Below are positions 19,001 to 42,864 of a stretch of 64,000 nucleotides of DNA, in pieces. The stretch comes from Naegleria gruberi (Eukaryota). The position numbers and the translations under genes were made by a program. The notes beneath the pieces were generated by a model, which had not been told where the DNA came from, did not search any database, and saw only the letters and a program-made list of their open reading frames with translations. The DNA is taken from the NCBI GenBank assembly GCA_000004985.1, contig GG738867.1. One strand, given 5' to 3'. Every line of letters starts with the position of its first letter. Positions within the stretch are counted from its first letter, which is position 1.

Positions 19001-22000
19001 ATGGGTATTCTCAATAGCAAGGAAAGTCTTCCCAAGACTACTACCACCATCAGTAACACAATTGCAGAGATTGAAAAGAAGAAAGCTGTACCATCAAAAA
19101 AAGAAGAAACAGTTTCGTTTAGATGTTTCAATACAAATTGGTCTCTCATACGATCATTGGGAGAAGGATATTTTGGAAAAGTATATGAAGCAAAAGATTT
19201 GACTACTGGTTCTCAATTTGCTATCAAAATTGTGAGATTTGAAATTGCAAATGAGGAGTTAGCTCGAAGAGAAGTTGAATTTTCCAAGAATATTGATAGT
19301 TCAAACGTTGTCAAAATCTTTGATAGTGAAGTGATGGACAAGGATCCAACCACTGGTCTTCCATCGAATGGTTGCAAGTTTTTGGTTATAAAGATGGAGC
19401 TTTGTCAAGGAAACTTGAATGACATTCTAATTCAATTAATAAGTAGCAATCAAACTCTTAGAATTGATGTTGTTTTTGTTTGGTTTTTCAAAATGCTTGA
19501 TGTTTTGTGCGACTTTGAACAAAATAATTTAATTCACAGGTAAGTTTGAGCAGGTAATTGAAAGAAACTTGAATTGTTTCATACAGAGATTTGAAACCAT
19601 CTAATATAATGATAAAGTATGAAGGTTCTTCCCCAACAGAGTTTGAGAAAATTCAACTCAAGATTGGAGACTTTGGATTGGCAAAGAAAATGAATGGGAA
19701 CTATTCTAATGTTGGTACTTCAATATTTAAGGCTTTGGAAATTATTGAACAAGAGGAGTATGACACAAGAGCTGATGTTTATTCTCTTGGAATGATACTG
19801 TTGCAAGTTAGTTTATTGATTTCTGAGGGTACACTTGCTGAAAAAATGTTAATTATTGTATCTAAATATGAAACAGGTCCCTATGAAACTTCTTTATGGC
19901 GTATTTTACAAGATAACAAAAGATTGAATGAATTCTTTGGAGATGTTTTTTATGATTTAACTGATCCAGGTACAAAAGAACTACTCAAACAAATGATTTG
20001 TGTTGTTGAAAAAAGATTGAAAGCTTCAGAGTTACAAAATCATCCAATTGTAAAGACTTGGAAGAAAGTATTAGCTTATGGACCAAACCATAGAGAAATT
20101 GATTTGTTTGAGTTCAATAACGCACCAAACGGTAATTTGGTAATCCTTGGGCTCGTTCCATTGATCAAGATTGTTTCCAAGCCGTCTGTAGTTTTAAGGG
20201 CCTTGTATGTTCTAGAAAGAATATTTTCTGATAGTACTAAACTGAAAGAGAGATCAGAGTATTTTATTATTAATGGTGGTATAGAGGTGGTTATTGGATA
20301 TGTCAATTCACTTATTAAAGCACTAGTACCAAACGATAAGTCATCCAATTCGAAACCAAAAAAGGAGTTGATTGAAGAGATAAAATCACACACTATTAGT
20401 AGTTTGATCACCACTAATGCATCTATTAATGACAAGGTTAAGACAGGATGGAATTTGTCAGTCAAATTAATTGCTTCAATATTGGAAAATAGTGACAATT
20501 TACCTTCTGAAAGACTTCGATTATTGAGTGCATCACTTAGAAGAAGTGGATTGTTTGATCTAATATCATCTTTGAAAAAGATTGATGATAAGGAAAAGCT
20601 GGCAGTTGAAGCAGTTGTTCCTGTTGTAAAGATTATCTCATTCATGTGTAAACACAATATAAGCGTAAGAAGCAATTATGCAAAGAAAAGTTTCATCGTT
20701 GCACTTTTGTCATTATTGGTATCAGATGGAATGGACGAGTTGAAAGGTGACATTATCGAAACAATTGCTCTTGTTGTTCCTTACATTGATGGAAGTGATG
20801 AAAAACTTGAGTTACTTGGTTTTTTTAAAAACTACTTTTTGTCACTTTCAATGCAAATGGCTGAACCTAGCTGTTTGATAGCTAATGAACAAGTATTTGA
20901 ACAATACATTGACAAACAAGATGATCCCGTTGAAGGGTTATTATTGAGAAGCAAACTTGCAATGATGGTTTCAGATTACAAACAAATTTTAAGTAGATCG
21001 TACTATGGATTATGCTCTAATGTTGATAGATCAGATGACCATATCAAGATGTGGTGGTTTAGATGTAAAACATGTTTTGCAAATGATCCATCTCTTGGTT
21101 GCTGTTTAACATGTGGCTATAAATGTCACCTTGGTCATAATTTGTCTCTTCAATATTCATCATTTTATTGTGACTGCCATGTAGGTGAAGAAACAATACA
21201 AGGACACACATGCCAATGCAAACCTAGTCAGGGATCCTTATTACCTCACTTGTCCTCCTTCAAATTGACTAGTCCAATTTCCGGTTTTGTTTCTGAAGGA
21301 TTACTTCTTTGTTTAAAGGAACAGGATCAAGACAACCATTCTGATTTTACAATCATTAATTTTGGGGAAGAATCAACAGCAATCTCCAACCAACCAATAG
21401 TTTCTCTCAATAAGGTAAACGAAGCAGAAAGAGAAGAAACCATTGGCTATTTTTCAATTAAAGTCCTTTCCACTGAGTTCGACGACTTGAAGATTGGTAT
21501 TAGCACTTCAGATTCCAAGTCCATAGAAAAAATTACTGAGATAGACACAAATAACAGTATTACATATGATTTATCAAATGGTAATTTAATCATTGGAAAA
21601 AACTCTTTCGTTTATGGACCAGAGGGATACTCAACGTGTACTGTTGGCTTTGGTATAACAAACATGGGTAGAATTTATGTCATGTTTGATAGTATGGCAC
21701 TGCCACTAATCACTCATCAAACGCTGAATGATGGAAATGTTTTTGCTGTTATCAGAGTGGCTGGAACAAGTATTCTGAAATTCTCTTGTGATACTCCGAT
21801 CATAGACGCCCCACAAACTATTTCTTTTACATTAAAACCAGTGGTAAAAAAGGAGGTTGACCTTGATACCAAAGCTAATGACGAGATTGTGAATACTGAA
21901 TCAAATGTTAGAGTTGAATACTCTGTTTCTCAGAATACCTCTGCTAAAGAACAGTTGAACAGCAACTCTTCATCAACAGGTCCGATTATTGAGAAGAAAA

Positions 22001-23920: not shown

Positions 23921-25393
23921 TTATCCAAAACCAAATGGAGTTTGTTGGGTTTGTTGAGTTTGTACTGGAGTTGAAACAAAATTGAATCCACCTGGTTGAG
24001 CTTGTGGTTGTTGGACTGGATTGCAACTGGCATACTTGTTAATGAGTTTCAATTTCCACTCTGGACTAATTGCACTAATAAAATAAAATTGTGGGGAATT
24101 ACAGCTTAGTAATTGGATCATCATTAAAACGGTTTCGATATTATTGATATGGAGATTGTCAACCAGAGTGCAGACTTCATAGGAGAGTGTCTCTCTCAAC
24201 GAAGCAAAGTTATGTAAAACCCAAACATCAATTGCACTCAAAATATTTGGTAACTCTGTTGCAGTGACCACCTTTTTGATTTGAGTTTCAAATAATTGTC
24301 TGTTCAATTCCTTGATAACCATTTGATTTTCTAAATCCTTTCCATCTACCAAGGTGTTGAATGCAATTTTAAACAAGGTAAAGTAGGAAGATGTTTCTGT
24401 AGAGTGAGGAAGTGAATAGGTTGAAAAGAAATTGTTGAAACTTCTGAGATACGCACGTGCACAATATTCTGAGAGTTTAAAGGTTGAGTAAAGTCGATTG
24501 ACTAATGTTTGGAATGTTGGAATGCCAAAGTAATCCATCACAAGCATAACTTGTAAAATATCTTCTACTTTTGCATTGGATGATTCAAAATAGGAACTAA
24601 TAGCATGTTGTAAAGCAATAGCTTTGATTCTTCCAAACTTTGATTCTGGAATGAAAGATGTTGCTAATTCTATGGTAAATACATCATTTTTCTTGGTACT
24701 GTTCTTTACCAACTGAGATAATAATCCATTATTTTGTCCAACTTTGATTCTATGAGTCTTGATTGTAGTAAAAAGTCCATTTTCATCATAAATTTCAATA
24801 TTTAAATCATGAAAATCATTGCTTTGATAACCACCAAATGACCCATGTTGTGGGATGGTAATAAATCCAGCAAGATTGGTAGTTGTTGCTGCACCAAAAG
24901 TGAAACCAAATGTTGGCTCAGTAGTGGTTGTGCCAAAAGCGAATCCAGTTTGTTGTGGTTGAGTAGCACCAAATCCAGTAACAGTAGGTGGTTGAGTTGC
25001 ACCAAAACCGAAACCTGTTTGGGGTGGTTGAGTTATAGATTGAGTAGTTGTTAGTTGACTTAATCCAAAGCCAGTAGTGGTAGGTTGAGAATTTCCTGTA
25101 GTAGTCCCAAAACCAAAACTTGGTTGAGTGGCTGGTTGGGAACCAAAGCTTCCGAATCCAGTAGTAGTGGTAGTAGTAGTTGGTGATGATCCAAAGCTGA
25201 ATCCTCCAGTTGGTTGTTGAGTAGTGGCTGGTTGGGATGTTTCTCCAAAGCTGAATCCACCAGAAGTATTGCCGGTTGTACCAAATGATGGTTGCTGTTG
25301 ATCAGTAGTAGCAGTAGCACTACTTGAACCAAAGCTGAAACCTGCTGGTTGTTGATCATTGCTTCCGAAACTATTAGTTGATGAGCTGAACAT
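23921..25393 (-). CDS. FG-repeat nucleoporin (N-terminal FSFG/GFGFG repeats, C-terminal helical domain)
   Basis: The first ~175 aa contain more than 15 FG/FSFG/GFG motifs in a Thr/Ser/Gln/Pro-rich context. The C-terminal ~300 aa are structured. The protein ends …PFGFG. Confidence 0.65.
   Translation of the reverse strand: MFSSSTNSFGSNDQQPAGFSFGSSSATATTDQQQPSFGTTGNTSGGFSFGETSQPATTQQPTGGFSFGSSPTTTTTTTGFGSFGSQPATQPSFGFGTTTGNSQPTTTGFGLSQLTTTQSITQPPQTGFGFGATQPPTVTGFGATQPQQTGFAFGTTTTEPTFGFTFGAATTTNLAGFITIPQHGSFGGYQSNDFHDLNIEIYDENGLFTTIKTHRIKVGQNNGLLSQLVKNSTKKNDVFTIELATSFIPESKFGRIKAIALQHAISSYFESSNAKVEDILQVMLVMDYFGIPTFQTLVNRLYSTFKLSEYCARAYLRSFNNFFSTYSLPHSTETSSYFTLFKIAFNTLVDGKDLENQMVIKELNRQLFETQIKKVVTATELPNILSAIDVWVLHNFASLRETLSYEVCTLVDNLHINNIETVLMMIQLLSCNSPQFYFISAISPEWKLKLINKYASCNPVQQPQAQPGGFNFVSTPVQTQQTQQTPFGFG
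24868..25393 (-). repeat. FG-repeat coding region (degenerate tandem repeats)
   Basis: The repeats were read directly from the translation. ORFs 24802..25005, 24845..25054 and 25060..25434 are alternative-frame artefacts of this region. Confidence 0.5.
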
Positions 25394-25617
25394 TTTCTAT
25401 TTTTTTTGATTAGGATTGCTGCTCGAGCAATCATTCTTTAAATCTCTTCTTGGGTTACAATCCTTGCTGAAGAATTCTTTCAAGTTCCTACAAACATCTT
25501 GTGTGTTTTTTTCTTAATCGAATTCTGTGGGTGAGAACTCTTTATTTTTGGTTTTCAAAAACATGGTTTTGGCGGGAAACCTTTTGTGAATTAAATTGTG
25601 TAACTTCACAAATTGAA

Positions 25618-26568
25618 TTATTGATAAACAACGAGACCTTTTTCATAGCAAACAAACAATTCCCCTGTTTGTTTATCCAAACACATTCCTGAAATATTAT
25701 CATTACATTTCTGCTTTTGGACAAGTTGTAAATCATCTTTTCTTAGAACTATTATTGTGTTGTCTTCTGCATCCGAAACCATTATCTTTCGATTCAATTC
25801 ATCATGAACTATCGAATAAAAATCTGAGGATGAACTTTCTGTATGCATTGAAACAATGAGTTTGAGTGCTTCCTTCCCCAATCCAAATAAGTTTTCATCA
25901 ATTTCATAAATGCTGGTCAACCCAGAACATCCAATCATAATTTCACTTCTTGAAATCAATTCGAGAGCACAAGCATCTGGAGAAATAGTTAATATTGTAT
26001 TCGTTATCAGACATCCAGTTTCACAATCCGTAATTTTCAAATGGCTTGCAAAGTCATCAAGAACGATCAGAAACCTCGTATTCTTTCCATTAAATACTAC
26101 CATTCCAAATGGATTGGAATAGCCAGCTTCCGAAGAATAAACTGGTTCAGGCAGGTTTTTTCCTTTAATGAACTCTCCAAGATGATACTTGTTTAGTAAA
26201 ATAGTATCAGCATTTGATTCAGATGGCGAAATATTATAAATCTCATCATGATCATCATCCAAAGTATGAATCAATGATCCCTCAAGAGCAAAACTATTCA
26301 GTAATATTTTCATCTTACGATCAATAATATAAACTGAATTTGTCGTAATTCCAACCAAACAATCATATCGATATGAAAGTTTAAAGTCATACCTTGTCAT
26401 TTCTTCAATTTCTAAATTTCCAATTTGTCTACAATTATCAAAGCGATAGGAGAATGGAATTTTAGGGTTTCGGAACATTGTCTTCAACTTATCTATTTGA
26501 TCCGTGATCACAGGCACAAAATCGATCAATAAAAATGAAACAGGTTCATCGTCATCATGAATCGACAT
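25618..26568 (-). CDS. Putative beta-propeller/NHL-like repeat protein, unknown function
   Basis: The ORF is 316 aa, with an ATG in aaaaaaaaaATG context. It lies only 13 nt downstream of the stop of the preceding same-strand gene. Confidence 0.45.
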   Translation of the reverse strand: MSIHDDDEPVSFLLIDFVPVITDQIDKLKTMFRNPKIPFSYRFDNCRQIGNLEIEEMTRYDFKLSYRYDCLVGITTNSVYIIDRKMKILLNSFALEGSLIHTLDDDHDEIYNISPSESNADTILLNKYHLGEFIKGKNLPEPVYSSEAGYSNPFGMVVFNGKNTRFLIVLDDFASHLKITDCETGCLITNTILTISPDACALELISRSEIMIGCSGLTSIYEIDENLFGLGKEALKLIVSMHTESSSSDFYSIVHDELNRKIMVSDAEDNTIIVLRKDDLQLVQKQKCNDNISGMCLDKQTGELFVCYEKGLVVYQ

Positions 26569-26581
26569 TTTTTTTTGTTAT

Positions 26582-27943
26582 TCATTTACTTTCTGTGTTG
26601 TTGAATAATGTGGACTTGATGATTCCTCTTACTTTCTTTGAAATAAAGTGAAGACTTGAGTTAGTGGCATGCTTAATCCAATAAAGCATTCTCCTAACGT
26701 TGCACTTTTCTGCAAAGGCAGCATATAGTATGATATTGTGACAGAGTTCGACTGGAGCAAGGATATTCGTCCATGATTTTAAGGTGTTTCCTTCATTGAA
26801 TCTTCCCAAATCTATTTCAGTAAAATAACAGAGAGTATTGAGAATAAATAGAATAGATCCCATGTGTTTAGGATAATAAGGGAACAGATTGACACTCAAT
26901 GAAAAAATCATTAACCCAAACACTGCTTGACATCCCAATAATCCCAATGACATTACAAACTTTAGACCAATATTCCAATCTCCCGAAAATGGAATTCTCA
27001 ACAAATTGCTTGTATGTCTGTATTGAAAAAATCCCACGGATTTCACAGCATTACAATAAACATATACTGAAAATATTATCAAATAAATTATATCATATTT
27101 GACAGCAAAGTCAAAAGAATCTGCTAGTTCTTCATAAAGCACTCGATATTGACATTTAAATGGCTCCATATTAACAGTCCAATATGATTGAGTTGACAAA
27201 ATTTTCAGTCTTCTTTTTGGAATTATAAATTCCTGACTCGCAACAATGCTGCTCTTTCCCAATAAATGATCTGGTTTCTCCAAATTTCCAATAAATTTTG
27301 AGAGGAAATCTAGAGCATTAGAATCACTACTTTTAAATTGTGTTTCAATATCCATAGGTTTCAATTTTTTGTAAACTATTATTGATTTTGGTCTCTTTGT
27401 AATATTTTCAACGTTGAATATTGTAATATTTCCATTAACATCAACATAACCATGAACCAATATTATGGATGCATTTTCCAATCTTGCCCATTCCTTCTCT
27501 ACCTTTCGAATAATTTTTTTAAAGTAAACTATTTCAATAGGCCACTCTTCCTCTTGTTTACCCAAACAATTTACAGGTAAATAAACCAAGAAATCAGAAT
27601 CCAACTCATCATATCCATACCTATACTTTAAACAAAGTGCCATACACCTTTTTAACGTACTCCTATTCTCATCAATTGATCCACAAAATAATTTACAAAT
27701 TTCCCCTTCAGATTTCAATTGATCAAGAATTAATTTTCCTCTTTTCAATCCAAAATTGTGAATTGTTTGCATTTTCATCAAGTAATTTTCCAATAATTTT
27801 AAACTCCAAGCAAAATCAGAATTTCCCTCGCAAAACATGTTTTTGTAAAGTGAGGAATTTAATTGAGAAATTCGGAATAGATCGAGTGGTGAGAGAAATT
27901 TACAAATTTCATACCAACATGATGGTGCTATGAAAATAGCCAT
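26582..27943 (-). CDS. F-box-like protein with C-terminal multi-helix hydrophobic region
   Basis: The N-terminus …WYEICKFLSPLDLFRISQLNSSLYKNMF is F-box-like. The architecture resembles the gene at 10760..12262. Confidence 0.5.
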   Translation of the reverse strand: MAIFIAPSCWYEICKFLSPLDLFRISQLNSSLYKNMFCEGNSDFAWSLKLLENYLMKMQTIHNFGLKRGKLILDQLKSEGEICKLFCGSIDENRSTLKRCMALCLKYRYGYDELDSDFLVYLPVNCLGKQEEEWPIEIVYFKKIIRKVEKEWARLENASIILVHGYVDVNGNITIFNVENITKRPKSIIVYKKLKPMDIETQFKSSDSNALDFLSKFIGNLEKPDHLLGKSSIVASQEFIIPKRRLKILSTQSYWTVNMEPFKCQYRVLYEELADSFDFAVKYDIIYLIIFSVYVYCNAVKSVGFFQYRHTSNLLRIPFSGDWNIGLKFVMSLGLLGCQAVFGLMIFSLSVNLFPYYPKHMGSILFILNTLCYFTEIDLGRFNEGNTLKSWTNILAPVELCHNIILYAAFAEKCNVRRMLYWIKHATNSSLHFISKKVRGIIKSTLFNNTESK

Positions 27944-30186: not shown

Positions 30187-30875
30187 ACAACGTTAACAAA
30201 TTAATTTGAGGGTTTGATGAAAGAAAAATATTTGTAACAGTTCAATTTGATCAATTAACCCACTTTCGTGCTAAATAAATTAATCTTTGATTTCTTAATC
30301 TCATCCAATAATAATTGATAACATTCTTCAAAAATTTGGAATTATTAGGAATGATGTGTTGTAAACTACCAACCCTAATTTTGATTCCTTTTTCACTGAT
30401 GATTTTCCAATTAATTTGTAAATTTTCTCAAAGAATCTTGTTAATAAAATTTCAAAGATGATGAATTTTACTCAATTTCGTAATAATCTATTTTAGAGTG
30501 TTAACATGACATGCTTAAATATCTTATAATTGAACAGTATAGAATTGATAGGTCGAAATCCTTGGACAATTTATTGATGAACACTGACTGATGTCTACCA
30601 AATAGTAGTCATGGCAAGTACCTTACAATATGTGGCTAGTCAACTAACACTTGATTGATATGCTTCAAGAGACATAAAACCTGTCATCAATCAAGTTTCA
30701 CAGCAAACAAGAAAACTCATCAAAAAAAAAACAAAATTGTTGTGGTGTTGGTTGTTGCCCATCCCAAAAACCTGTGCTGTACATTTTCCACATTAGAAAC
30801 AAAGATTGACAAGTTAACCACTCGTCATTCAACAACAACAACACATTACAACAATATATATAATAGATTTGTAAG

Positions 30876-33800
30876 ATGTCTGTCACCAAGATGGATCTCT
30901 CCATTGCGGAGAAGAAAGCCTACGACTTTCTTATTCGTCAGGAAGAAGCCAAACGTTGGATTGAAGAACTTATCCAAGAAAGTCTGCCTCCAGGCACTGC
31001 TAACTTTGGTGATAACTTGAGAGATGGTATTGCTTTGGCCAAGTTGGGTAAAATCTTTGCTCCAACAGCAATTAAGAAGATTAACACTCCAAAGTCAGGA
31101 AGTGTTTTGGAATTTATGGCTGTTGATAACATTTCCCAATTCTTTGAAGCCTGTAAGAAGGTTAATTTCCCTGATCACTATATTTTTGGTATGTGTTATA
31201 ATAGTAACAGCTTTTATTCTAATCTATTATGTTCATGTTGTTATTCAACTCGTATGATGATGATAATTTGTTGTTATTCCTTCCCTCGCTTTTTTCATCA
31301 AATCACAAAAAATAATCATCACAAAAATAATGTTCTTCCTCCTATGATGATGTTGATGGTGAATGATAATGTTATTGTTGCTTGTTCTTGATAATAGAGG
31401 TTACCGATTTGTGGGAATTGAAAAACGTTTGGAAAGTTGTTCACTGCTTACACACACTCTCCCTCCACTTGTATAGAAATGGCTTGGCCATTAGAATGCA
31501 AAACTTGCAAAAGGCTAACTTGAAGTTCTCCCGTGAAGAAATTGAAAAGACACAAAAGTTGATTGAAGACATTGCAGATAATGCTATGGCTTTCCCAGTT
31601 GATATTGAAGAAGTTGGTGAAGAAACAGATTCATCCATTGATGATGTTTTAGAAGATTTGGCTGATCCATCAATGTGTGATGCCGATGGTGAAGGTCTTA
31701 ACAAGGCAACTGCTGGTGTCGAAGCTAAATTTGTTATTACTGCAAGAGATTCTGATGGTGAAGTTCTCAAGGAAGGTAACGAATCATTCAAGGTTACCTT
31801 GTACTCTGTTAGTTTGCTGGGTCAAGATGAAAATGCTGAACGTGTTGTTATTCAAGCTAATGTTTCGAATAATGGTGATGGTACTTATGCTGTTTCTTAT
31901 ACTCCTGAAAAGGCTGGTGAATACAGAATGGAATTGGTTTTGTTCGATGAAGAAACTCAAGAAGAAGTTGATCAATTATCAAAGGTCTCTCCACAAAACG
32001 TTACTGTTTCTTCCAATCCAACCTCTGATCCATCAAAGAGCGTTTTGGATGGTTCTGGTATCGGTTCTGCTGTTGCTGGTGTTAAATCCGAATTCCAACT
32101 CACTTCATTCGATAAGTTTGGAAACCAAGGACGTGGAGGTGAAAACTTTAATGCTACTCTCACTTTCGGATCTGAAGTTGTTCAATGTCATGTAGATGAT
32201 TTGAATAATGGTAAATATCGTTTCTCATACACTTGTCCAAAGAGTGGTGAATATACTTTGACTGTCAAGTTGGGTGATCACGTTGTTGCTACCAAGTCAG
32301 TCATTGTTAAAGATGCTGGTATTTCTGATCCATCCCGTACTGATTTCAGTGGTATTGATTCTGTTCTCGATAAGAAGGCTGGTGAACTCTCTGCATTCAC
32401 TATTCTTGCTAAGGATACTCACGGTAATGATCGTTCATCAGGTGGTGAAAAGTTCTCTGTTACTCTCATTAATGGAAGTGAAGTTACTGAAGCTAGTGTT
32501 AAAGATACCAATGATGGTAAATACCATGTTGAATACACTCTTAACACAAGTGGAAACTACAAATTGCAAGTCAAACTTGGTGATGCTGTTGTCACTGAAA
32601 AGGATGTTCATATTCATGATACTGGTGTCACTGATCCATATCAAACTACTTTCAGAGGTGAAAACTATAAGCAATTCCCAGCTGGTAAGCAAATGCAATT
32701 CTTTGTTGAAGCTAGAGATAGATTCGGAAACAAGCGTGAAAATGGTAGTGATACTTTCATTCTCCAATTCACTTCAAAGGCCACTATGGAAACTGTTTCA
32801 AGTGATTTGATCAAATTCAATGATTTGGGAAGTGGTGAATACTCATTCGATTACACTATTGAACAATCTGGTGAATATGGTATGGAAGTTTTGTTGAAGG
32901 AATCTGCTGACACCCGTTCTGAAGGTGGTAGTGAAGCTACTTCATTGTTGAAGGCTTTCTTGAGAAAGTACAAGTACACCAATATTCCAGGATTCCCATC
33001 CACTACATTTGTTGATGATAGTGGTGTTACTGATCCACAAAAGACTCAATTTGCTGGTGACGGTGTTTCTAATGCTGTCCAAGGAAAGGAATCTGAATTT
33101 GTCATCAAGACCAGAGACTCATTCAACAATGTTCGTCAAACTGGTGGTGATAATGTTGAAGTCGTTGTTTCTAATGAAGCTAGAAAGATTGATCTCCCTG
33201 CTTCTGTCAAGGATAATCAAGATGGTACTTACACTGTTACTTATACTCCAAAGGCCTCTGGTAAGACTAAGCTCCTCGTTAAGATTAATGGTGTAGTTGT
33301 TGAAAGTGATATCTTGAAGGGTGGTGTTTTCGTTTCTCCTCCAGATATTAGCGATACTTCAATGCTCGATACTGTTTTGGATCATGACTTGTTATCTGCC
33401 TTGTTGAATGCCTTCAAGGTTGAAAATGATTCTGATAACTTGATCGAAAAGATTCAAAAGCTCCGTGAAGAACTCATTAAACAAATTCGTGAGAACACTC
33501 GTATTGAAGAAAATGTCAGAGAAAAGGACAGAAAGATTTCACTCCTTGCTGAAAATAGATATGATGCCGAAACAATTTTGAATCAACGTGGTGGTATTGC
33601 TGGTTATTTCCAACGTAGAAGACAAGAAAAGATGGCTACTGCTAATGATGATAAGAAGGAAAAGTTCAATATTAAGGATTACGTTGATCACTACAGCAGT
33701 TTGTTCTACTTGTTGCAAACTAATCCAAAGTATTTGGCTAAGTGTTTGTTCTTGGTTCCATCTCGTGATATGGACCAATTCATGCAAACTGTTACATTGA

Positions 33801-35635
33801 CTTTGTACGGTTATGCCTTCTCTCCTCGTGAAGAATATTTGATTTTGAGTTTGTTTAATGAAACTCTCCACCTCGAAATTCAAAACAGTTCAATTGATAA
33901 CTTCTTGAACAACAACCCAGTTTTGATCAAGTTGGTTGTTAACTATTGCCATGAACGTATCCAAGGTAAACAATTCTTGCAAAAGGTTTTGTTCGATAAG
34001 ATCTTGGAACCAATCATTGAAGAAAAGGATTTGAACTTGAATTTGAACGCTGTTACTATTTTGAAGGAAAGAATTTCCCAACAAGAAGTTGAAACTGGTG
34101 TTAAGAGCGATATCAACATTAAGGATATGACCTATGAAAAGGCTATGCAAGATGAATACGTCAGTAAGCTCGTCCAACAACGTACCAAAAAGATGATTGA
34201 CATTTGTCAAGGTGTTTTGGATACATTGAATGACAACATTAACGAATTGCCATACGGTTTGAGATATATCTGTAGACAATTGAAGGTCATGTTGGGTAAG
34301 AAGAATCCAAATGCTACCGAAGAAGATATTAACCGTGTTGTTTCATATTTATTGTTCTTTAGATTCCTTAACGGTCCATTCTGTGGTTGTGACTCTTACA
34401 ACTTGACTAAGAAGAAGATTTCTGCCAGTATGAGAAATAATTTGGCTTGGATTTCAAAGGTTTTGATGCGTGTTTCTACATTCAAAGAATTCGATAAGGC
34501 TTATGACATTCACTTCTGTGTTGTCAATGAATGGATTCAACAAGCTATTCCTACTTTCGTTGAAAAGTTCATTAAGCCAGCTATTGTTATCCCAGAACCA
34601 GAAGAACAATTGGGTGTCCATCAATTTATTGAACTCACTCAAAAGAAGTCACCTTCTATTACTATTACCTTGAACGAAATTGCTCAAACTCATGGTTTGT
34701 TGGCTAAGTTCTTGAACAGAATTGCTCCAGACGAAAAGGATCCATTGAGAGAAGTTTTGAGCAACTTCAAGGACATGATTCCAGAACAAGTTGAATCAAC
34801 AAAGAATGAAGAAATCAGTTTGCCACTCCAAGTTAGAACTAACATTGAAAACTTGGATTTGGAAGTTAAGCCAGAACAATTGTACGAAATTGCTAAAGAA
34901 CACTTCCGTGGTATTTTACGTGTCATTACTCCACAACAATTGGGTGAAAATGTTGCTGAAACTGTAGATAAGGCTGAAAAGTATGCCGAAGAATTGATCG
35001 ATAGTTCTAAACAAGAAGCTGATGGTATTCAATTGAAGAGAAAGGTTGAAGAACTTAGAAAGGCTCTTCCAAAGTTGGCTGATGCTGAAATTCTCTCAGC
35101 AGCCAACGGTTATAGAAAATTGTTGACTGATATTACTAAGGAAATTCAAAACAGAGGTGAAGTTAGAAAGAGACAAGTTCGTGAATTGGAACGTTTAACC
35201 GAAAGTTTGGAATCCCTCAAGGAACATCAAAACTTCCTCAAGGAAAAGGACAAGAGTTTGGACGACTACGTCCAACAAACCCTTCGTAACTACTTTGAAG
35301 GAAAGAACAAGAGAAAGCAAAAGTCTGGAAAGAAACAAGTTTACAAGTTCAGCTACTCTCAACTTTCAGAGAAGTATAAGGTTATTGCCGAAATGACAGA
35401 AGGAGGTGCTTTGAAGAAGGGTATCAAATTCCAAATCTCTATGGATGAAGCTAATCCAGGTTTCTTTACAGTTGAAGCTAAATTGGCTGGTGCATCACTC
35501 AAGACAATTAACTTGCGTCTTGATGAACTTTTGGACAAACGTGGCAGAGGTGAAGCTCTTCTCAAACTCGATGGTGTTTCACTCAATGTAAATATGACTA
35601 TTCACATGATGAATAAGCTTTTCGTTAGCAAGTAA
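30876..35635 (+). CDS. IQGAP-related protein: calponin-homology domain + ~8 filamin/ABP280-type Ig repeats + RasGAP-related domain + RasGAP-C; 2 exons (30876..31188, 31398..35635)
   Basis: A 209 nt intron at 31189..31397 (gtatgt…taatag) joins …PDHYIF|EVTDLWELKNVWKVVHCLHTLSLHLYRNGL. This matches the IQGAP CH-domain motif LFETVDLYEKKNMPRVIYCIHALS. The repeats are of the form G-x-G-L…A…F-x-I-x-T/A-x-D-x-G-N. The RasGAP-related domain carries …LRYICRQLKVMLGKK… and …YLLFFRFLNGPF…. Total length is about 1516 aa, with very strong codon bias. Confidence 0.8.
31650..33350 (+). repeat. Filamin-type repeat coding array (about 8 units of ~95 aa)
   Basis: The translation shows a recurring …SG-x-G-(L/V)…V…A…F-x-(I/V)-x-(T/A)-(R/K)-D-x-(G/F)-G-N…Y-x-(V/F)-x-Y-T-P periodicity. 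Confidence 0.6.
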
Positions 35636-35651: not shown

Positions 35652-36314
35652 TTAAATTTTATCACCGCTCTCAAGTTCTTTTTCAATCTTTGGAACTACA
35701 TCCTCTAATGGCGTATTATTTCCACATCTATAAACAACTGCCCCATTCTTATCAATGAGGAACTTTTCGAAATCCTCAACTATGGTCTTACTGGATCCTT
35801 CTCTGAAATTGCTCAAATAATGATAGGCATCTCCACATTCTGCTTTAACCGTGAGAGCGTCATAATTAACAGAAGAGCATGTTTCGTATTCATGTGGAAC
35901 GCCTTTACATACAAACAGCTCATTCCTGCTTGTTTCAATTTCATCACAGAGGAATTTTCTCAAAGGGGTGGCTGTTGAGGATGTTGGTTTGAAAGGATAT
36001 CTGGGAATTACCAATACTTCAAATCCTTTCTCTGCATATCTATCTTTGAGTTGTTGAAGTTCTTTGAGGAAAGCATAATAATTCGGATTGTCAGTATTGC
36101 AAATCGCAACCAGTGATAACTTTCCTTTAAATTCTCTAAGATGGACCCATTTTCCTCTTATATCTTTCACGGAATAATTATAAAAGTTGATGGCAGTGTC
36201 AGAAGCTGGCGTGCTTGATTTATTAGATGATGAAAACAGAGCTTTCTTGGGGAGGGCAGAATAAACAGGAGTATTATTTATTCGAATTGAAACTCTCTGA
36301 ATGGTTCGATACAT
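35652..36314 (-). CDS. Glutathione-peroxidase-family (thioredoxin-fold) protein with N-terminal presequence-like extension
   Basis: GPx-like blocks are present (…FYNYSVKDIRGKWVHLREFKGKLSLVAICNTD…, …KGFEVLVIPRYPF…, …WNFTKFLIDKNGAVVYR…-like). The catalytic NVAS(C/U)G motif is replaced by VAICNTD. Confidence 0.55.
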   Translation of the reverse strand: MYRTIQRVSIRINNTPVYSALPKKALFSSSNKSSTPASDTAINFYNYSVKDIRGKWVHLREFKGKLSLVAICNTDNPNYYAFLKELQQLKDRYAEKGFEVLVIPRYPFKPTSSTATPLRKFLCDEIETSRNELFVCKGVPHEYETCSSVNYDALTVKAECGDAYHYLSNFREGSSKTIVEDFEKFLIDKNGAVVYRCGNNTPLEDVVPKIEKELESGDKI

Positions 36315-36418: not shown

Positions 36419-39400
36419 TTATTTCAATTTGCTCAACATTTCAATAAGTTCTTGCAAATTTTCGTAAGTAACCATCACGCTTGATACAGAGTGGCCAACA
36501 CCTGAAATATTACCTGATGATTTTCTACCTAACGAACTGCTGTTCATTGAAATGTTCAACATGCTACTATTGTTAAGAATTGAAGAGTTGAGATTGCTCT
36601 TGTTCAGATTTTGTTTCTTCTTATCTGTGGCATACTTTCTTTGCATCAACTTGGATAATGAAACACATCTCTTCAACAAGTCTTCTCTGACGGCTTTCAA
36701 TCTCTTTGTGTCTGCCTTCTTAATTAGTGAAAGAGCTCTCATGAATATTTCTTCTCTTTCTCTGTAAATTTGAAGTTGATCGAATAAAATTTCGAACCAT
36801 TCATTCTTTTCGTGAACCAGACAATTCAAATACTTAATTCTTGTCAAATTAAGTAATATATCAAGAATGTGAATAAGAAGTTCAGTATGAGGTTTGGATC
36901 TATTGAGCATCTTGATAAAGCTGTACAAAATAGGAACTGCATTGTTGGTAACCAAACTTTCACAACAACTATCACTCCATGTTGTGGTTGTAGCCAAGTT
37001 AGCACATGCACTCATGACTTGATTAACAGAGTTGGATTTGAGCAATACTTCCAAAGAACGTTGGGTTCTATACTTGAGTTTCTTTCTTTCATCAACATTG
37101 GCAGATAAGGTTGTAATTCTTTCTCTGATAGCATTGACTTGATCAGCATTACAACGTCTAACCATGAAGCCTCTGAAAACCTTTTGGATTTTTGTTGCAG
37201 CATCATGCATTTGATGTGAAACACTCTTAATATGATTGATAAATCTTGCAGTAACATGTCTTCTTGCAAGTGCTTGCAACACCAAAACTCTATCTTCTTC
37301 TTGGCTTCTCTTTTTCTCTTCCAAAAATCTTCTGATAGATGTTTGAGCAACAATAGTATGTTCTCTGTCTTGGATGAATTCATTTTGGGCTTGTGTTGCT
37401 CTAATCATGGTTTGAGTATCAACAATGGTGCACATTTGTTGTTGGACTCTCTTTCTTTCCAAGAATCCTCTAATAGAAGCTTGGCAGCTGATAACATCAA
37501 AGGTTTCACAATAGAATGAGACACGAGCAAGTACGCCCTTAATGATTGCTTGACTAAGATAGATGTCATAATAGTCATCCAAAATACTTTCTCTATCATT
37601 CTTAGCTCTAAGGGAAGCTTGGATAGAGAGAATACCTTGTTGCATAAGGTTGGCCTTTTCTCTTTCTCTGAAACTTCTGATGGTAGTTTGAAGAGAAACA
37701 GCTCTATTGGTTTCGATTGAGTGATTCTTTCTATCTCTGAAACCTCTGATTAATGTTTGCAACAATGTGATGGAATTAATGCTTGCCTCTTTTTCTTGTT
37801 GGACTTGATGTCTTCTCATATTGGATTGAAGTGAAAGAACAGATCCAACAAAGTTATTGTACATCTTTCTAAAGAATCCATCTCTCATAGCTCTTTGTAT
37901 TACCATGAGCGATTCTGTTTGTCTTTGTTGATTGTTACGTTGGAGACGACCTCTGATAAGGGCTTGCAAGGTAGTGACTCTATCGAAAGATTCCTCCTTG
38001 TTCTTTCTATCCAAACTTCCCAAAATAATAGCGGATAGAATGTAAGCACGGTATCTGTCCATCAAAGTATCACACTCAAGAGTGAATCTTCTCATAAGAG
38101 ATTGCATTGATGTAATTCTTTCAGTGGATTCAATCATTGCATTCTCAGTTCTAACTCGTCTTAGCAAGGATTGCATGATTTGAACTCTTGATTCTTGGTA
38201 TTTTTGATGAGACTTTTCAATAAATCCTCTAGAAATAGCTTGCATAATGACGATCTTCTTCTGTTCTTCAGCAAATTGTCTTTTTGCAAAAAGGCTTCTT
38301 GCCAAAGATTGAATCGATATTATATCAGCCTTGTCTTGAGCGAATTGAGATCTCTCTTCTTTACCTCTAACTAAGGCTTGTGATTCAGAGATTAGAGAAA
38401 TAGAATCCAATACCTTTCTTCTTTCAACCAAACCTCTTACCATTGATTGTTGAAGAACAATAGCAGATTCATCTTCTTCCAAAGCATTTTCAATATATGA
38501 CTCAAAGTTTTGCATTTCTATTTCATTAAAATAGTCCAACAATTCGGCATAGTCAAGGTAGAATTGCTTTCTTGAAAGATAACCCCTAATGACAGCTTGA
38601 GTTACTTCAACGTCATAAATGTCATCGAGATGAGATTCTCTTTCAATAAAGCTTCTCATAATAGATTGAATATTGAGAGCAGATTGTTTGAATTCAAAGA
38701 CTTTCTTTTGATCTGCAAATGCTCTAGATAAAGCTTGAAGAGTGGTGACTTCTTTCTTTTGAACTACAGTATTCTTTCTACAAAGATATCCTCTAGCCAT
38801 TGCTTGTAGTCTGACTGTCAATTCCATTAGAATTCTGTGTTTTCTTTGTTGTCTAAGGAATTCCAACTTCTTTCTTTCAATATTAGCACGAGTACGGGCT
38901 TCTATAATTGTAGAGGCATCTCGTAAATTGTGGAGTCTTTTTTGCATGTAAATAGTGTGCATCCAATTTTGAATGACAACAAGGGCCTTAGTTTGAATGA
39001 CATTCTCCTTATGTAAATATAATTGATTGAATAAGTGGCCAATTTTACAGACCATTTGATGTTCATCATAATCCTTACTGATTTCTACTGTCTTCTTTTG
39101 AATTTTAGTTGGAGAGAATGAGGCACTCCAACATCCATTGTTGGAATATTGATAATGGTGCAAGAAATCTCTATTCTCTTCTCTAGGTAATATTTCTTCG
39201 AGAGGGAGAGGAGATGGAAGTCTATATTGATTAGAAACAAGGTTAAATACTATTTCTTCTTCAGTTTTAAGCGAAGGAGATGAAAAGTTCCAAACTTTGT
39301 ATTTGGCAGGCAGATTATCATACCTTTCCAATACAGCTTGAATCCATTGAAGAAGCATTGCAACTCTAATATCCTTATAACCTTGAATTAATGAAATTTG

Positions 39401-40563
39401 ATGAATTCCAATGCCGAAATTCTTGAGCTCGTGAACCAATTGTGCCATATTTACAGGAAGGGATTTTTCCAATTCTTTTTGTTTTTCTAAAATTTTTTGA
39501 ATTTCAGACCTAGCAGTACTTTGAATGATTCTCTTCTGAGTTGTGGAAAGACTGTTATTAGTAAGAGCTGATGAATTAGAAGCTACAGCTCTCGATTGTC
39601 CAATAATTGATGATGTTTCCTTTTTCATCTTTTCAGTCTTTTGAATCTTAGTCTTGTTGATGAGTGTAGATTTTTCCAATCTTGATTGCTCTGTTGGTGC
39701 TGTTGTTTTGGTTACTGGTTGAGTTCTTCTAACAATCATTGAGGAATTTTCATTTGGGAGAATGGCAGAAATATTACAAGTGGATAAGTTAAAGGTTGTT
39801 TCTTCAGGTTTTTGAGTGGTAGTTGGTTGTACTCTTGTTGTGTTAAGTCTGGATGTAGTAGTGAGTGGTTTCCTAGTTGTTTGTGCTTTAGTTGCTTCCA
39901 TAGCTTCTCCCATCAAGTAAACAGTAAATCTGAATCTTGTGTTCCACAAAAATACAAGTTGGCAAGAGATTTTACCTGGCTGTAATGGTTGCCAAGAAAT
40001 AGGTATTTGGTAATCTCCACATAGAGCTGGTATAGCATGTGAAACTTCACGAATAGTGAACCCAAACTGAACTGGAAGTTTTTCTACAGCAATTTCTTGT
40101 TGCTTTTGGATTGGATTTGATACAAAGAGTGTCATAACTTTTGATGTACCAAGTTTAACCCTACCAAAGTCAACATATACCTTACTAGCAAATTGTTTGA
40201 GAACCAGAGTTGGCCCTGTTGGAACACCAACTGGTTTTTTATAATTGTTTCATCCATTGTAGCAATAGATGAAAGACCAGAAAAGGTGAGGTCTTGTATT
40301 ATATTTTCCTTGTCATCAACCATTAGAGAAGTATTACTTCCAATTTGTGAAGTTTGAAGAAGAGAGGCATTAGATCGGTCGACACGGTCTACCACAAATC
40401 TGCTGAATTGTGCCTTGTTAAATTGTGGAGAGTTCATGATGGCAGCTGATTTGTTTGTTGTTGTTGATAGAATAGGAAGAGTTTGTGAAGTGTTGAGTGC
40501 ATTGTTGTTGATATTTTGTTGGTTGTTATTATTCACCAGGCTACCTAGCAGTGATCGATTCAT
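36419..40563 (-). CDS. ASPM/abnormal-spindle-like protein: ASH domain, CH-like region, ~30 IQ motifs, C-terminal ARM-like domain; probable 2 exons (40563..40278, 40230..36419)
   Basis: ORF 40132..40563 and ORF 36419..40135 are in different frames. A 47 nt intron at 40231..40277, with a non-consensus GTCTTT donor and an aaaaaaccAG acceptor, joins …QDLTFS|VGVPTGPTLVLKQFASKVYVDFGRVKLGTSKVMTLFVSNP, giving a continuous ASH-like fold. IQ motifs ([IL]QxxxRGxxxR) recur from about aa 430 to 1000. Confidence 0.65.
37135..38845 (-). repeat. IQ-motif repeat array (coding) within the ASPM-like gene
   Basis: IQ motifs recur every ~23-27 aa in the translation (e.g. LQALSRAFADQKK, IQSIMRSFIERE, VIRGYLSRKQF, LQALIRGRLQRN). 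Confidence 0.55.
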
Positions 40564-40644
40564 TTTTTTTGAATTTGTTTTTAAAAGACTTAACGTTTCC
40601 CGCCTTCAATTTTGGCGGCAAAGTTTTAAATCATTCAAAGAAAA

Positions 40645-42864
40645 ATGAGCGGCAACAATGCCTACAGTTCTTTTGCCTCCAATCATCAATACGGAGGAGA
40701 GGAAGATGACGACGATCAGTATCATGAAGAGGTTGAAGACAATTTGGAATACGATAATAATTTAGATGATAGTTCTTATAGAAAGAGAAACTATTTGACT
40801 TACGAGGAATATGAATTGGATGAAGAGGACGAGAGATTAATAAGAGAGGAATTAGGAGAGTATGACCCTGAAAATAATCAGAGCCAAATGGAACAACACG
40901 AAGAGGAGGAAAACTTTGATGATATTACCGAAGAGTTCTTATTATCAAAAGTAAATGAGCTCAACAAATTGGCTATCCAAATTGATGTGCTGAGTTTCGG
41001 AGGTGACCAACAAGAAATAGAGGAGACTAGAGCTCAGATGGACAATATAATAGCCTTCATCTGCAAAGTTACTAAAGTCAAGAGAAATATAGAAAATTAC
41101 ATCAAATCAGATAATAAGCGTATTTCTTCATCCCTTCCTTCATTGTTCATTGATTTAAAAGCAGATATTAGGAAGTTGTTTCATACAGAAAGGTCAATAC
41201 TCTCACATACATCATTCAATACTACCCAGGAGCATAATGAACCTGAGGCTCCTAGGGAAACAAAACACTATAACAGTGTTGTTGATCACCATGTAGAAGC
41301 TTCGGGAGAATATGAAGATGATGCAGAGCAGTATCATCAGGAAGGGGATGAGGAAGAACATTATCAAGATGAAGAAGAACAGGAAGAACATGACGAAAAT
41401 CACAATGAAGAAGAACAGGAGAATGAACAAGAAATGCCTGAACCTTATGAACCATACGAGCCAACCTATTATGAAGATGATGTAGATTATACACTTGATG
41501 CTGAAGATGATGAGCTTTCCAACATATCAGAGGATGATTCAGATGATATTAAACAGTTAGATTTTCTAAGGGATCAATGTACGAAGAAGAGTATTGAATT
41601 AATTCAAGCAAGAAATGAGAGAGAAAAGGCCTTAACCACCTATCACTGCAATGAAATGATAAGGAAAGACCCAAATTCAAAAGAAAAATATCAGTTGGTG
41701 CAGCAATTGATTAATAATTGCCGTGCTGAGCTGGATAAACTTAATAAGGAAATTGAGAGATTCAGTAGAGAAGCCATTGAAATAAGGAAACAAACAGAGA
41801 TTAACAAACCAACGAGACCAAAACCTAATAAGAAATTGCCAAAAACTCCTGAAAAGAAGAGGATTGAGAGAATTGAACATATGGTTCAAGAAATAACAAC
41901 ACCTCGTGCAAATAAGGATTCGGTTGTAATGTTGACACCTTCACAATTAAAGGAAAGACAAGAAAACAGTGATCTTCAGAATATGTACAATAGACTGGAA
42001 GCAAGTTTGTCGAAAACCCCTCAGGCTAAAGAGTATGCGGATGAAAAACCAAAAGCAAGCAAGCCAAAGCCTCCAAAGCAGCCAAGTAATAACACAAGGT
42101 CAGTGGATCCAAATCTCTCAATGGAACCATCAAAAGAAAAGACAAGGCCAATGTCATCCTCTATAGCTGTGACTTCTGCCAATGACCCAAGAAAGAAAGC
42201 TCAAGAAAGGTTAAAGGAAAAAATTCAAAAAGAAAAGGAACAAAAGGAAAAGGAAGATTTGGAAAAGGCAGAAAAACTCAAAAAGTTGGAAGAAATATGC
42301 AGTAAGCAACAAACTATCATCCTCGAAGAAAGAAAAGCTCTAACAACCAAAAAATATCTCGAGGAAATCCTTTCAGATGATTCAGATGAGGAAAGAATGA
42401 AAGAAATGGAGGATGAAGAAAGAAGAAGAATGGAAGAAGAAAGAGTTGAAGAAGCCAGAAGAAAGGCGCTCCTTAGAGCTAAGGAAAAGAAAAGAAAAGA
42501 AATAGAGCGAGAAAAAGAAATGGAAGAAGAACGAAAAAAGAGAGAGGCTGAAAAGTGGAGAAAAAGGGATGAGGGTCTAATGGCATTCAAGCTTAAACAA
42601 GAAATGGAAAAGGAAAAGAAGATGGATGTGAGAACTTCAAAGCCAACTATGCCACAACAAGCTCCACAAATCATAAAACCAAAACAACAAAACAAAGAAG
42701 CAAAGCCGTCAACCACTTCTCAAAAGACAAGAAAATCAATGCCAGCCACTGCAGTAACAGATAGTCCTCTACTAGATGGCCTCAATACACGAGATGATGG
42801 CCACGACTATTTACAATTTTCACCACCACCGCCAATGTTTAGTACCAGTAAACTAAAGAAATAG
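40645..42864 (+). CDS. Highly acidic/charged coiled-coil protein (E/D/K-rich), unknown function
   Basis: The ORF is 739 aa with poly-E/D tracts and a K/E-rich C-terminal half. No domain was recognised. The antisense ORF 42225..42716 is a composition artefact. Confidence 0.5.
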   Translation: MSGNNAYSSFASNHQYGGEEDDDDQYHEEVEDNLEYDNNLDDSSYRKRNYLTYEEYELDEEDERLIREELGEYDPENNQSQMEQHEEEENFDDITEEFLLSKVNELNKLAIQIDVLSFGGDQQEIEETRAQMDNIIAFICKVTKVKRNIENYIKSDNKRISSSLPSLFIDLKADIRKLFHTERSILSHTSFNTTQEHNEPEAPRETKHYNSVVDHHVEASGEYEDDAEQYHQEGDEEEHYQDEEEQEEHDENHNEEEQENEQEMPEPYEPYEPTYYEDDVDYTLDAEDDELSNISEDDSDDIKQLDFLRDQCTKKSIELIQARNEREKALTTYHCNEMIRKDPNSKEKYQLVQQLINNCRAELDKLNKEIERFSREAIEIRKQTEINKPTRPKPNKKLPKTPEKKRIERIEHMVQEITTPRANKDSVVMLTPSQLKERQENSDLQNMYNRLEASLSKTPQAKEYADEKPKASKPKPPKQPSNNTRSVDPNLSMEPSKEKTRPMSSSIAVTSANDPRKKAQERLKEKIQKEKEQKEKEDLEKAEKLKKLEEICSKQQTIILEERKALTTKKYLEEILSDDSDEERMKEMEDEERRRMEEERVEEARRKALLRAKEKKRKEIEREKEMEEERKKREAEKWRKRDEGLMAFKLKQEMEKEKKMDVRTSKPTMPQQAPQIIKPKQQNKEAKPSTTSQKTRKSMPATAVTDSPLLDGLNTRDDGHDYLQFSPPPPMFSTSKLKK

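What the first reader, a model, noticed from the sequence alone, without database searches (positions are those of the whole stretch)
36419..40563. ASPM-like gene requires a 47 nt intron with a non-consensus GTCTTT donor to keep its ASH domain intact
Frame C upstream of the annotated Met reads KKPVGVPTGPTLVLKQFASKVYVDFGRVKLGTSK, which is clearly the first half of the ASH/MSP-like fold and is continuous with the downstream exon. It only joins the upstream ORF through an intron whose length matches the local norm but whose donor is GTCTTT. This is either an unusual splice site or a 1-nt frameshift. An ASH + CH + ~30 IQ + ARM architecture indicates a spindle/centrosome protein of the ASPM type.
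Basis: partly seen in the sequence, partly recalled or inferred. Interest (0 to 1): 0.5.

Follow-up and report, generated by a model that had tools for sequence, protein, structure and literature searches.

The report
One-base gap, not an intron
The break in this Naegleria gruberi spindle-protein (ASPM-like) gene is a single missing A in a run of seven, not an unusual intron, so the finding is an ordinary assembly or strain defect that cut 143 residues off the published gene model.

Summary
The window is Naegleria gruberi. ORF 36419..40135(-) is the annotated protein XP_002677405 (1238 aa).

- The ASH-domain frame stays open upstream of the annotated Met.
- A 143-codon ORF starting at 40563 lies in another frame.
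- Removing 40277..40231 (47 nt, GTCTTT...CCAG) joins the two.

The intron reading fails:
- A 99.2%-identical environmental contig has A7 where the window has A6 (40235-40240). It encodes one uninterrupted 1381-aa ORF reading ...SSIATMDETIIKKPVGVPTGPTLVLKQ.
- An 83%-identical relative is also uninterrupted. There the donor GT is GC and the acceptor AG is TG.
- The "intron" codons look like coding sequence (dN/dS about 0.17, on only 16 codons). The upstream ORF is under strong constraint (0.07).
- The ORF-joining introns inferred elsewhere in the window start GTAAGT, GTATGT or GTAGGT.

So this is a one-base homopolymer deletion. I cannot tell whether it is an assembly error, one allele, or a true lesion of the sequenced strain.

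The gene is a single-exon ASPM-type protein:
- a disordered N-terminus with an invariant KEN motif;
- an ASH domain (48.6 bits full length, 18.4 in the annotated model);
- about 23 IQ units with a 23-residue period;
- a conserved ARM-like C-terminus.

A CH domain is not demonstrable. Interest is low.

The parts
36419..40563 (-). Whole ASPM-like gene. It is a single exon that reads as one 1381-codon ORF if the A-run at 40235-40240 holds 7 A instead of 6.
   Evidence: Inserting one A gives a 1382-codon ORF with only the terminal stop. P0009 on L002 is that same 1381-aa ORF at 99.2% nt identity. P0002 on L001 is an uninterrupted 1379-aa ORF.
40235..40240 (-). A6 homopolymer, the site of the one-base deletion relative to the intact A7 allele. 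In the upstream frame it forms A_AAA_AAC.
   Evidence: The DNA alignment of window, L002 and L001 shows the gap here. It is one of only two single-base indels in 5308 aligned nt.
40231..40277 (-). The proposed 47-nt intron (GTCTTT...CCAG). It is actually coding sequence for GLSSIATMDETIIKKP.
   Evidence: It is translated in frame in L002 and L001. In L001 the donor is GC and the acceptor TG. dN/dS is 0.17 over these 16 codons. The upstream frame stays open 48 codons past the 'donor', against 1-8 for the inferred introns.
40303..40311 (-). KEN motif (AAG GAA AAT), the only invariant three-residue block in the disordered N-terminus. It is a candidate APC/C degron and is absent from the annotated model.
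   Evidence: K85, E86 and N87 are invariant in 6 orthologs. The degron function is inferred.
39929..40213 (-). ASH (ASPM-SPD2-Hydin, MSP-like) domain.
   Evidence: Pfam PF15780 scores 48.6 bits, E 9e-13, profile 1-95/98 on the full protein. On the annotated model it scores 18.4 bits, profile 29-95.
40133..40135 (-). ATG used by the public gene model XP_002677405 / EFC44661. It lies inside the ASH domain.
   Evidence: P0001 is identical to ORF 36419..40135.
38981..39547 (-). Conserved middle region, specific to Heterolobosea at sequence level. It may contain a degenerate remnant of the second CH domain (LLQWIQAVLERY...).
   Evidence: Mean column identity is 80% in 6 orthologs. There is no Pfam hit. 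An exhaustive HMMER search finds only the heterolobosean orthologs P0005 and P0006. hhalign to the ASPM-like CH2 region aligns 64 columns at probability 5.6%. The AF2 model has pLDDT 50 and is unusable.
37130..38980 (-). IQ-motif array of about 22-24 units with a strict 23-residue period.
   Evidence: Pfam IQ scores 82-86 bits. A regex scan shows the 23-residue spacing. The profile matches myosin-V and myosin-Ic IQ necks in the PDB.
36635..37129 (-). Conserved ARM-like C-terminal region of ASPM type (RTQRSLEVLLKSNSVNQVM...CCESLV...NRSKPH..LL).
   Evidence: hhalign of A1 against P0007 (a CH+IQ ASPM-like protein) gives probability 99.8%, E 3e-30, spanning the IQ array and this region. The block is nearly invariant in the orthologs.
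40564..40644 (.). 81-bp divergent intergenic region shared with the gene at 40645..42864(+). It carries E2F-like sites at 40596-40604 and 40611-40622.
   Evidence: TTTSSCGSS occurs 5 times in the window against 0.73 expected, and 3 of these are here. Both blocks are conserved in L001 and L002 while the spacer differs.

Best explanation
The gene at 36419..40563(-) is a single-exon Naegleria gruberi ortholog of the ASPM/Asp spindle-pole protein family. In this assembly its reading frame is broken by the loss of one A from an A7 run, leaving A6 at 40235-40240. There is no intron.

Restoring the A gives a 1381-aa protein with these parts:
- a disordered N-terminus with an invariant KEN motif;
- a complete ASH domain;
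- a lineage-specific middle region;
- about 23 IQ motifs with a 23-residue period;
- an ARM-like C-terminus.

Because of the frame break, the public model (XP_002677405) starts at an internal Met. It lacks 143 residues, including the first 28 of the 98 positions of the Pfam ASH profile.

Shown: the frame break, its position, the intact allele in relatives, coding constraint across the region, and the domain content.

Inferred:
- The A6 is an assembly or base-calling error, or one allele of a heterozygous strain, rather than a fixed lesion. I put this at about two to one.
- By analogy with ASPM/Asp, the protein binds calmodulin-like light chains on the IQ array and acts at spindle microtubule minus ends.
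- The E2F-like promoter sites and the KEN motif suggest cell-cycle control.
For: -: the window ORF is identical to N. gruberi XP_002677405.
- P0009 sits in the same 90% cluster and is 1381 aa. That is exactly the length expected for ATG 40563 to stop 36419 plus one base. It reads ...FSGLSSIATMDETIIKKPVGVPTGPTLVLKQ....
- L002 is 99.17% identical over 5308 nt, with 42 mismatches and just two 1-nt indels. One is A7 against A6 at 40235-40240.
- the 83%-identical relative L001 has an uninterrupted 1379-aa ORF.
- dN/dS of window against L001 is 0.074 for codons 1-95, 0.17 for the 16 'intron' codons, 0.024 for codons 112-143 and 0.092 for the rest.
- the indels against L001 that lie clear of the break are multiples of three. 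The gaps at the break net to +3 nt only once the missing A is restored.
- ORF-joining introns inferred in the window start GTAAGT, GTATGT or GTAGGT.
- ASH scores 48.6 bits with the extension and 18.4 without it.
- all six orthologs carry the N-terminal extension, the KEN motif and PTLVLKQF.
- the IQ array plus C-terminus matches an ASPM-like protein at 99.8% probability.
Against: - No reads or transcripts of the sequenced strain could be examined. Whether A6 is really present in NEG-M DNA or RNA is therefore untested.
- L002 is a different strain (0.8% divergence), so its A7 does not prove an error in the reference.
- The 47-nt excision does restore the frame with GT...AG ends and a length typical of local introns.
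- Comparative evidence cannot formally exclude a strain-specific cryptic splice that rescues a real lesion.
- The dN/dS over 16 codons has little statistical power on its own.
Confidence: 0.9

Rival explanations
1. A genuine 47-nt spliceosomal intron (40277..40231) with a non-consensus GTCTTT donor is removed. The product is a 1365-aa protein lacking GLSSIATMDETIIKKP.
For: GT...AG termini, restoration of the frame, and a length within the local range of 44-120 nt. The ASH domain is intact in the joined product.
Against: - The same 47-48 nt are translated in frame in two relatives.
- In L001 both splice dinucleotides are absent (GC, TG).
- A 99.2%-identical strain closes the frame with one extra A.
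- The donor lacks the A/G at +3 and the G at +5 found in the inferred local introns.
- The upstream frame stays open 48 codons beyond the donor, against 1-8 for the inferred introns.
- dN/dS is 0.17.
Confidence: 0.03
2. The A6 lesion is real and fixed in strain NEG-M, and the gene is a recent pseudogene or hypomorph. Either the 143-aa upstream ORF is translated and terminates, or a truncated protein starts at Met 40135 with a crippled ASH domain.
For: - The assembly and its annotation show A6.
- NEG-M is a long-cultured axenic laboratory strain.
- No record of an A7 version from NEG-M itself was found.
Against: - The remaining 4.1 kb of ORF carries no other defect.
- It differs from the wild allele by only 15 non-synonymous and 13 synonymous changes.
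- The gene is strongly constrained across the genus (dN/dS 0.09).
- Naegleria is described as mainly a heterozygous diploid (PMC9928731), so a consensus may show one allele.
- Homopolymer miscalls are a common source of single-base errors in draft assemblies (general knowledge).
Confidence: 0.25
3. The A6 is real, and full-length protein is made by recoding. The mechanism would be -1 ribosomal frameshifting on the in-frame heptamer A_AAA_AAC, or polymerase slippage adding an A on the run. Either yields exactly ...TIIKKPVGV....
For: In the upstream frame the site reads ATA AAA AAC, a canonical X_XXY_YYZ slippery heptamer. A -1 shift gives the same product as the A7 allele.
Against: - The heptamer arises automatically when one A is deleted from A7+CC.
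- The 115 nt downstream fold no better than shuffles (z = 0.08).
- Relatives need no frameshift.
- A6 is short for efficient transcriptional slippage (general knowledge).
Confidence: 0.02

Closest known systems
ASPM / Asp / ASPM-1 family (abnormal spindle-like, microcephaly-associated proteins)
   Same: - An N-terminal ASH domain (Pfam PF15780).
- A long IQ-motif array.
- A conserved ARM-like C-terminal region that aligns at 99.8% probability with a CH+IQ ASPM-like protein.
- UniRef names the N. lovaniensis ortholog 'Abnormal spindle-like microcephaly-associated'.
   Different: - No recognisable tandem CH domains. Pfam finds none, exhaustive HMMER finds only heterolobosean orthologs, and hhalign to CH2 gives probability about 5%.
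- A single ASH domain.
- An IQ array of about 23 units with a uniform 23-residue period.
Orthologs in N. lovaniensis (C9374_009737), N. fowleri and Willaertia magna (ABK040_014751)
   Same: All have the N-terminal extension, the KEN motif and a complete ASH domain.
   Different: The linkers between KEN and ASH are longer. Their public models are full length, whereas the N. gruberi model is truncated.
Homopolymer-run single-base indels in draft assemblies that split or truncate gene models
   Same: A one-base length difference in an A-run. An otherwise intact ORF is split into two frames, and the annotator fell back on the first downstream ATG.
   Different: It is not proven here to be an error rather than a true allele, because no reads were available.
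Programmed -1 ribosomal frameshift sites (X_XXY_YYZ heptamer plus downstream structure)
   Same: An in-frame A_AAA_AAC heptamer. A -1 shift gives the ancestral protein.
   Different: There is no downstream stimulatory structure. The shift is not conserved, because relatives have a continuous frame.

Membership tests
U2-type spliceosomal intron | GT...AG termini whose removal restores the reading frame | tested here: met
   40277 GT ... AG 40231. The joined CDS is 4098 nt with no internal stop.
U2-type spliceosomal intron | 5' splice site resembling the organism's consensus | tested here: not met
   The ORF-joining introns inferred in this window begin GTAAGT, GTATGT or GTAGGT: 5217-5291, 19540-19586, 5633-5697, 3849-3899, 8791-8731, 18173-18130 and 52342-52223. 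The long intron of the IQGAP-like gene has an apparent GTATGT donor, read from the frame translations and not located exactly. GTCTTT differs at +3 and +5. These introns are inferred from ORF joining, not from transcripts.
U2-type spliceosomal intron | Splice sites conserved in relatives, and interior free of coding constraint | tested here: not met
   L001 has GC and TG at the two sites and reads through. L002 reads through with A7. dN/dS over the segment is 0.17.
U2-type spliceosomal intron | A spliced junction in transcripts | not testable with these tools
   No N. gruberi RNA-seq or EST data could be reached. Look-ups of the window ORF products found no record.
ASPM/Asp family | N-terminal ASH (MSP-like) domain | tested here: met
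   PF15780 scores 48.6 bits, E 9e-13, profile 1-95/98.
ASPM/Asp family | Tandem calponin-homology domains between ASH and the IQ array | tested here: inconclusive
   - No Pfam CH hit at E<=1.
- The profile HMMER search of 1.84 billion representatives finds only heterolobosean orthologs.
- hhalign to the CH2 region of ASPM-like proteins aligns 64 collinear columns, but at probability 5.6%.
- The AF2 model has pLDDT 50.
ASPM/Asp family | Long array of IQ calmodulin-binding motifs | tested here: met
   PF00612 scores 82-86 bits. About 22-24 units lie 23 residues apart between residues 529 and 1145.
ASPM/Asp family | Conserved ARM-like C-terminal region | tested here: met
   hhalign of A1 against P0007 (CH + IQ + this region) gives probability 99.8%, E 2.8e-30, running through residues 1166-1280.
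ASPM/Asp family | Localisation to, and function at, spindle poles or microtubule minus ends | not testable with these tools
   This needs an experiment. The literature search for Naegleria plus ASPM found nothing relevant.
Programmed -1 ribosomal frameshift | Slippery heptamer X_XXY_YYZ in the zero frame | tested here: met
   ATA AAA AAC in the upstream frame at 40243-40235.
Programmed -1 ribosomal frameshift | Downstream stimulatory RNA structure, and conservation of the two-frame arrangement | tested here: not met
   The fold of 40234-40120 has z = 0.08 against shuffles. Relatives have a single frame.

The most novel reading that the evidence does not exclude
The A6 run is truly present in strain NEG-M, and the cell still makes full-length ASPM-like protein. 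It would do so by -1 ribosomal frameshifting on A_AAA_AAC or by transcriptional slippage on the A-run. That would be a spontaneous recoding rescue of a conserved, presumably important mitotic gene in a heterolobosean.
Probability: 0.02. Interest if true: 0.5.

Novelty: not a real feature. Interest (0 to 1): 0.08.

Why it matters
This matters mainly for curation. The public N. gruberi model NAEGRDRAFT_48956 / XP_002677405 is truncated by 143 residues. As a result it falls below the Pfam ASH threshold and loses an invariant KEN motif, so domain-based surveys can miss that N. gruberi has a complete ASPM-type protein. The corrected model gives a clean single-exon ortholog for work on Naegleria's spindle. 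It also warns against invoking non-consensus introns to repair frame breaks that lie in homopolymer runs.

Tried and rejected
- **Look-ups of the window ORF products.** Neither the 1238-aa nor the 143-aa product is on record in the assembly collection. I therefore have no independent NEG-M evidence for A6 or A7.
- **Protein search with the 143-aa ORF.** It returned nothing, not even the known relatives. This is uninformative.
- **JGI metagenome scan.** The exact pattern around the A-run, allowing A6 or A7, gave 0 hits.
- **Literature.** Searches for PRJEB11402, SRR25266762, Naegleria plus ASPM, and Naegleria splice-site consensus found nothing directly usable. PMC9928731 supplied only background on ploidy and heterozygosity.
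- **AlphaFold2 on the 211-residue middle region.** With a 6-sequence alignment the mean pLDDT was 50, too poor for a fold search, so none was run.
- **Exhaustive profile search with that region.** It found only the heterolobosean orthologs, so no deeper alignment could be built.
- **Profile search against PDB sequences.** It hit only myosin IQ necks.
- **First unsupervised intron scan.** It was too noisy. A stricter version gave usable junctions. One candidate, 26589..26493, was dropped because it contains the start of the next ORF.
- **Other frame-restoring GT...AG pairs** (for example 40277..40216, 62 nt, or donors inside the ASH region). I rejected these for the same comparative reasons, and because they delete conserved ASH residues.
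Full report
**Identity of the window.** ORF 36419..40135(-) is 100% identical to the 1238-aa 'predicted protein' of Naegleria gruberi (XP_002677405 / EFC44661 / NAEGRDRAFT_48956). The window has about 34% G+C and is gene-dense. It has a few short inferred introns.

**Checking the observation.**
- On the minus strand, a 143-codon ORF starts at ATG 40563 and stops at 40132-40134.
- One base out of phase, a second frame opens after a TGA at 40252-40250. It reads NNYKKPVGVPTGPTLVLKQFASKVYVDFGRVKLGTSKVMTLFV... and runs to the stop at 36419.
- Removing 40277..40231 (47 nt, GTCTTT...CCAG) fuses the two frames into a 1365-aa product with no internal stop.
- The extension matters. The Pfam ASH domain scores 18.4 bits (profile 29-95, below the 27-bit cut-off) in the annotated model, and 48.6-48.7 bits (profile 1-95/98) once the upstream codons are included.

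**Intron or indel: the near-identical strain.**
- The 90%-identity cluster of the annotated protein has a second member, P0009, of 1381 aa. That is exactly the length expected if ATG 40563 to stop 36419 were one ORF with one extra base.
- P0009 reads ...LTFSGLSSIATMDETIIKKPVGVPTGPTLVLKQ....
- Its contig (L002, an ENA metagenome assembly) is 99.17% identical to the window over 5308 nt. There are 42 mismatches and only two single-base indels.
- One indel is in a T-run in the intergenic region. The other is A7 where the window has A6, at 40235-40240.

**Intron or indel: the more distant relative.**
- L001, a Logan assembly, is 83% identical in DNA and 84% in protein. It carries an uninterrupted 1379-aa ORF.
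At the acceptor it has CTG rather than CAG. Neither splice dinucleotide exists, and the segment is translated (GLSSITPIDEPIKKTTT).

**Coding constraint.** dN/dS of the frame-corrected window CDS against L001:

| Region | dN/dS |
|---|---|
| Codons 1-95 (upstream ORF) | 0.074 |
| 16 'intron' codons | 0.17 |
| Codons 112-143 | 0.024 |
| Remainder | 0.092 |

The indels against L001 that lie clear of the break are multiples of three. The gaps at the break net to +3 nt only once the missing A is restored. The upstream ORF is thus real coding sequence, and the 'intron' looks like coding sequence too.

**Local splice sites.** An ORF-joining scan of the window found these junctions, whose introns begin GTAAGT, GTATGT or GTAGGT:
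- plus strand: 5217-5291, 19540-19586, 5633-5697, 3849-3899;
- minus strand: 8791-8731, 18173-18130, 52342-52223;
- a longer intron in the IQGAP-like gene, with an apparent GTATGT donor read from the frame translations and not located exactly.

- Perfect GTAAGT/GTATGT hexamers make up 0.55% of all GT hexamers in the window, yet they appear in 4 of 18 strict junction clusters.
- At the junctions found by the strict scan, the upstream frame hits a stop within 1-8 codons of the donor. At the proposed GTCTTT donor it stays open for 48 codons.
The donor does not fit.
- These introns are inferred from sequence, not from transcripts.

**Conclusion on the break.** It is a one-base deletion in an A7 homopolymer, not an intron (confidence about 0.9). 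I could not tell whether the A6 is an assembly or base-calling error, one allele of a heterozygous strain, or a fixed lesion of NEG-M. Naegleria is described as mainly a heterozygous diploid (PMC9928731). Every attempt to find independent NEG-M data failed. The rest of the ORF is flawless and the gene is strongly constrained, so I favour error or allele over fixed lesion by about two to one.

**Recoding.** Deleting one A from ATA AAA AAA CCA gives ATA AAA AAC CAG. That contains the canonical -1 slippery heptamer A_AAA_AAC in frame, and a -1 slip would regenerate the ancestral protein. However, the heptamer follows automatically from the deletion. The 115 nt downstream fold no better than shuffled sequence (z = 0.08), and relatives need no shift. 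I keep this only as a low-probability novel reading.

**What the gene is.** Six heterolobosean orthologs were aligned: N. gruberi-like P0009, P0002, N. lovaniensis, N. fowleri, an environmental relative, and Willaertia magna.
- They share a variable, low-complexity N-terminus. Its only invariant block is K-E-N (window 40311-40303).
- Next comes an invariant PTLVLKQF...DFG.V stretch that starts the ASH domain. All of this lies upstream of the annotated Met.
- A highly conserved middle region of about 190 residues follows.
- The IQ array has a strict 23-residue period, with about 22-24 units (Pfam IQ 82-86 bits).
- The C-terminal region is nearly invariant.
- A profile of the family aligns with 99.8% probability (E 3e-30) to an environmental ASPM-like protein that has CH, IQ and the same C-terminal region. 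The alignment covers the IQ array and the C-terminus.
- UniRef names the N. lovaniensis ortholog as abnormal spindle-like microcephaly-associated protein.

**The CH claim.** It is not demonstrable.
- Pfam gives no hit at E<=1.
- A profile of the middle region, searched against 1.84 billion representatives, finds only heterolobosean orthologs.
- AF2 gave pLDDT 50.
- hhalign against the second CH region of two ASPM-like proteins gives a collinear 64-column alignment (LLQWxQAV...F...YxxP..LP.sEIL), but at only 5.6% probability.
- A degenerate CH2 remnant is possible, not shown.

**How it probably works.** This is inferred from what is established for ASPM/Asp and was not tested here. The IQ array would bind calmodulin-like light chains. 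The ASH and C-terminal regions would mediate association with microtubule minus ends and spindle poles.

Two features suggest cell-cycle control:
- The invariant KEN motif is a candidate APC/C degron.
- The 81-bp divergent promoter carries E2F-like sites (TTTCCCGCC, and the overlapping TTTGGCGGC / TTTGCCGCC). These are 3 of the 5 matches in a window where 0.73 are expected. They are conserved in both relatives while the spacer between them varies.

**Verdict.** The sequence observation is confirmed. The ASPM-type classification is supported except for the CH domains and the IQ count. The result is a gene-model correction for N. gruberi and is of low general interest.

Noticed in passing
window 40564-40644 (sites at 40596-40604 and 40611-40622): The 81-bp divergent promoter between the ASPM-like gene and the acidic, Lys/Glu-rich gene at 40645..42864(+) holds three E2F-like TTTSSCGSS matches. 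The whole window has 5 against 0.73 expected. Both blocks are conserved in the 83%-identical relative while the spacer between them differs.
   Followed up: partly
window 25568-25579: A palindromic E2F-like site, TTTGGCGGGAAA, lies about 175 nt upstream of ATG 25393 of an FG-repeat (nucleoporin-like) ORF at 23921..25393(-). That ORF has no Pfam hit.
   Followed up: no
window 40303-40311 (-): An invariant KEN tripeptide sits in the otherwise variable N-terminus of all six heterolobosean ASPM-like orthologs. It is a candidate APC/C degron and is missing from the public N. gruberi model.
   Followed up: partly
window 30870-35635 (+): An IQGAP-like gene with an N-terminal CH-like sequence, five filamin repeats, RasGAP and RasGAP_C. 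Its first exon (MSVTKMDLSIAEKK...) appears to join the main ORF through an intron of roughly 200 nt. The donor looks like GTATGT and the acceptor lies at about 31399. This intron is longer than the others in the window.
   Followed up: partly
window ~40586 (intergenic T-run): The only other indel between the window and the 99.2%-identical contig L002 is also a one-base homopolymer difference (T4 against T5).
   Followed up: no
window 35652-36314 (-): A 220-aa ORF has a sub-threshold glutathione-peroxidase / AhpC-TSA match (25 bits against a 27-bit cut-off). It is conserved in synteny in L001.
   Followed up: no
window 25618-27943 (-): Two ORFs, 26582..27943 and 25618..26568, can be joined by a 97-nt GTAAAT...ATAG excision. 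However, the 'intron' contains the ATG and first codons of the downstream ORF. They may be two tightly packed genes rather than one spliced gene.
   Followed up: no
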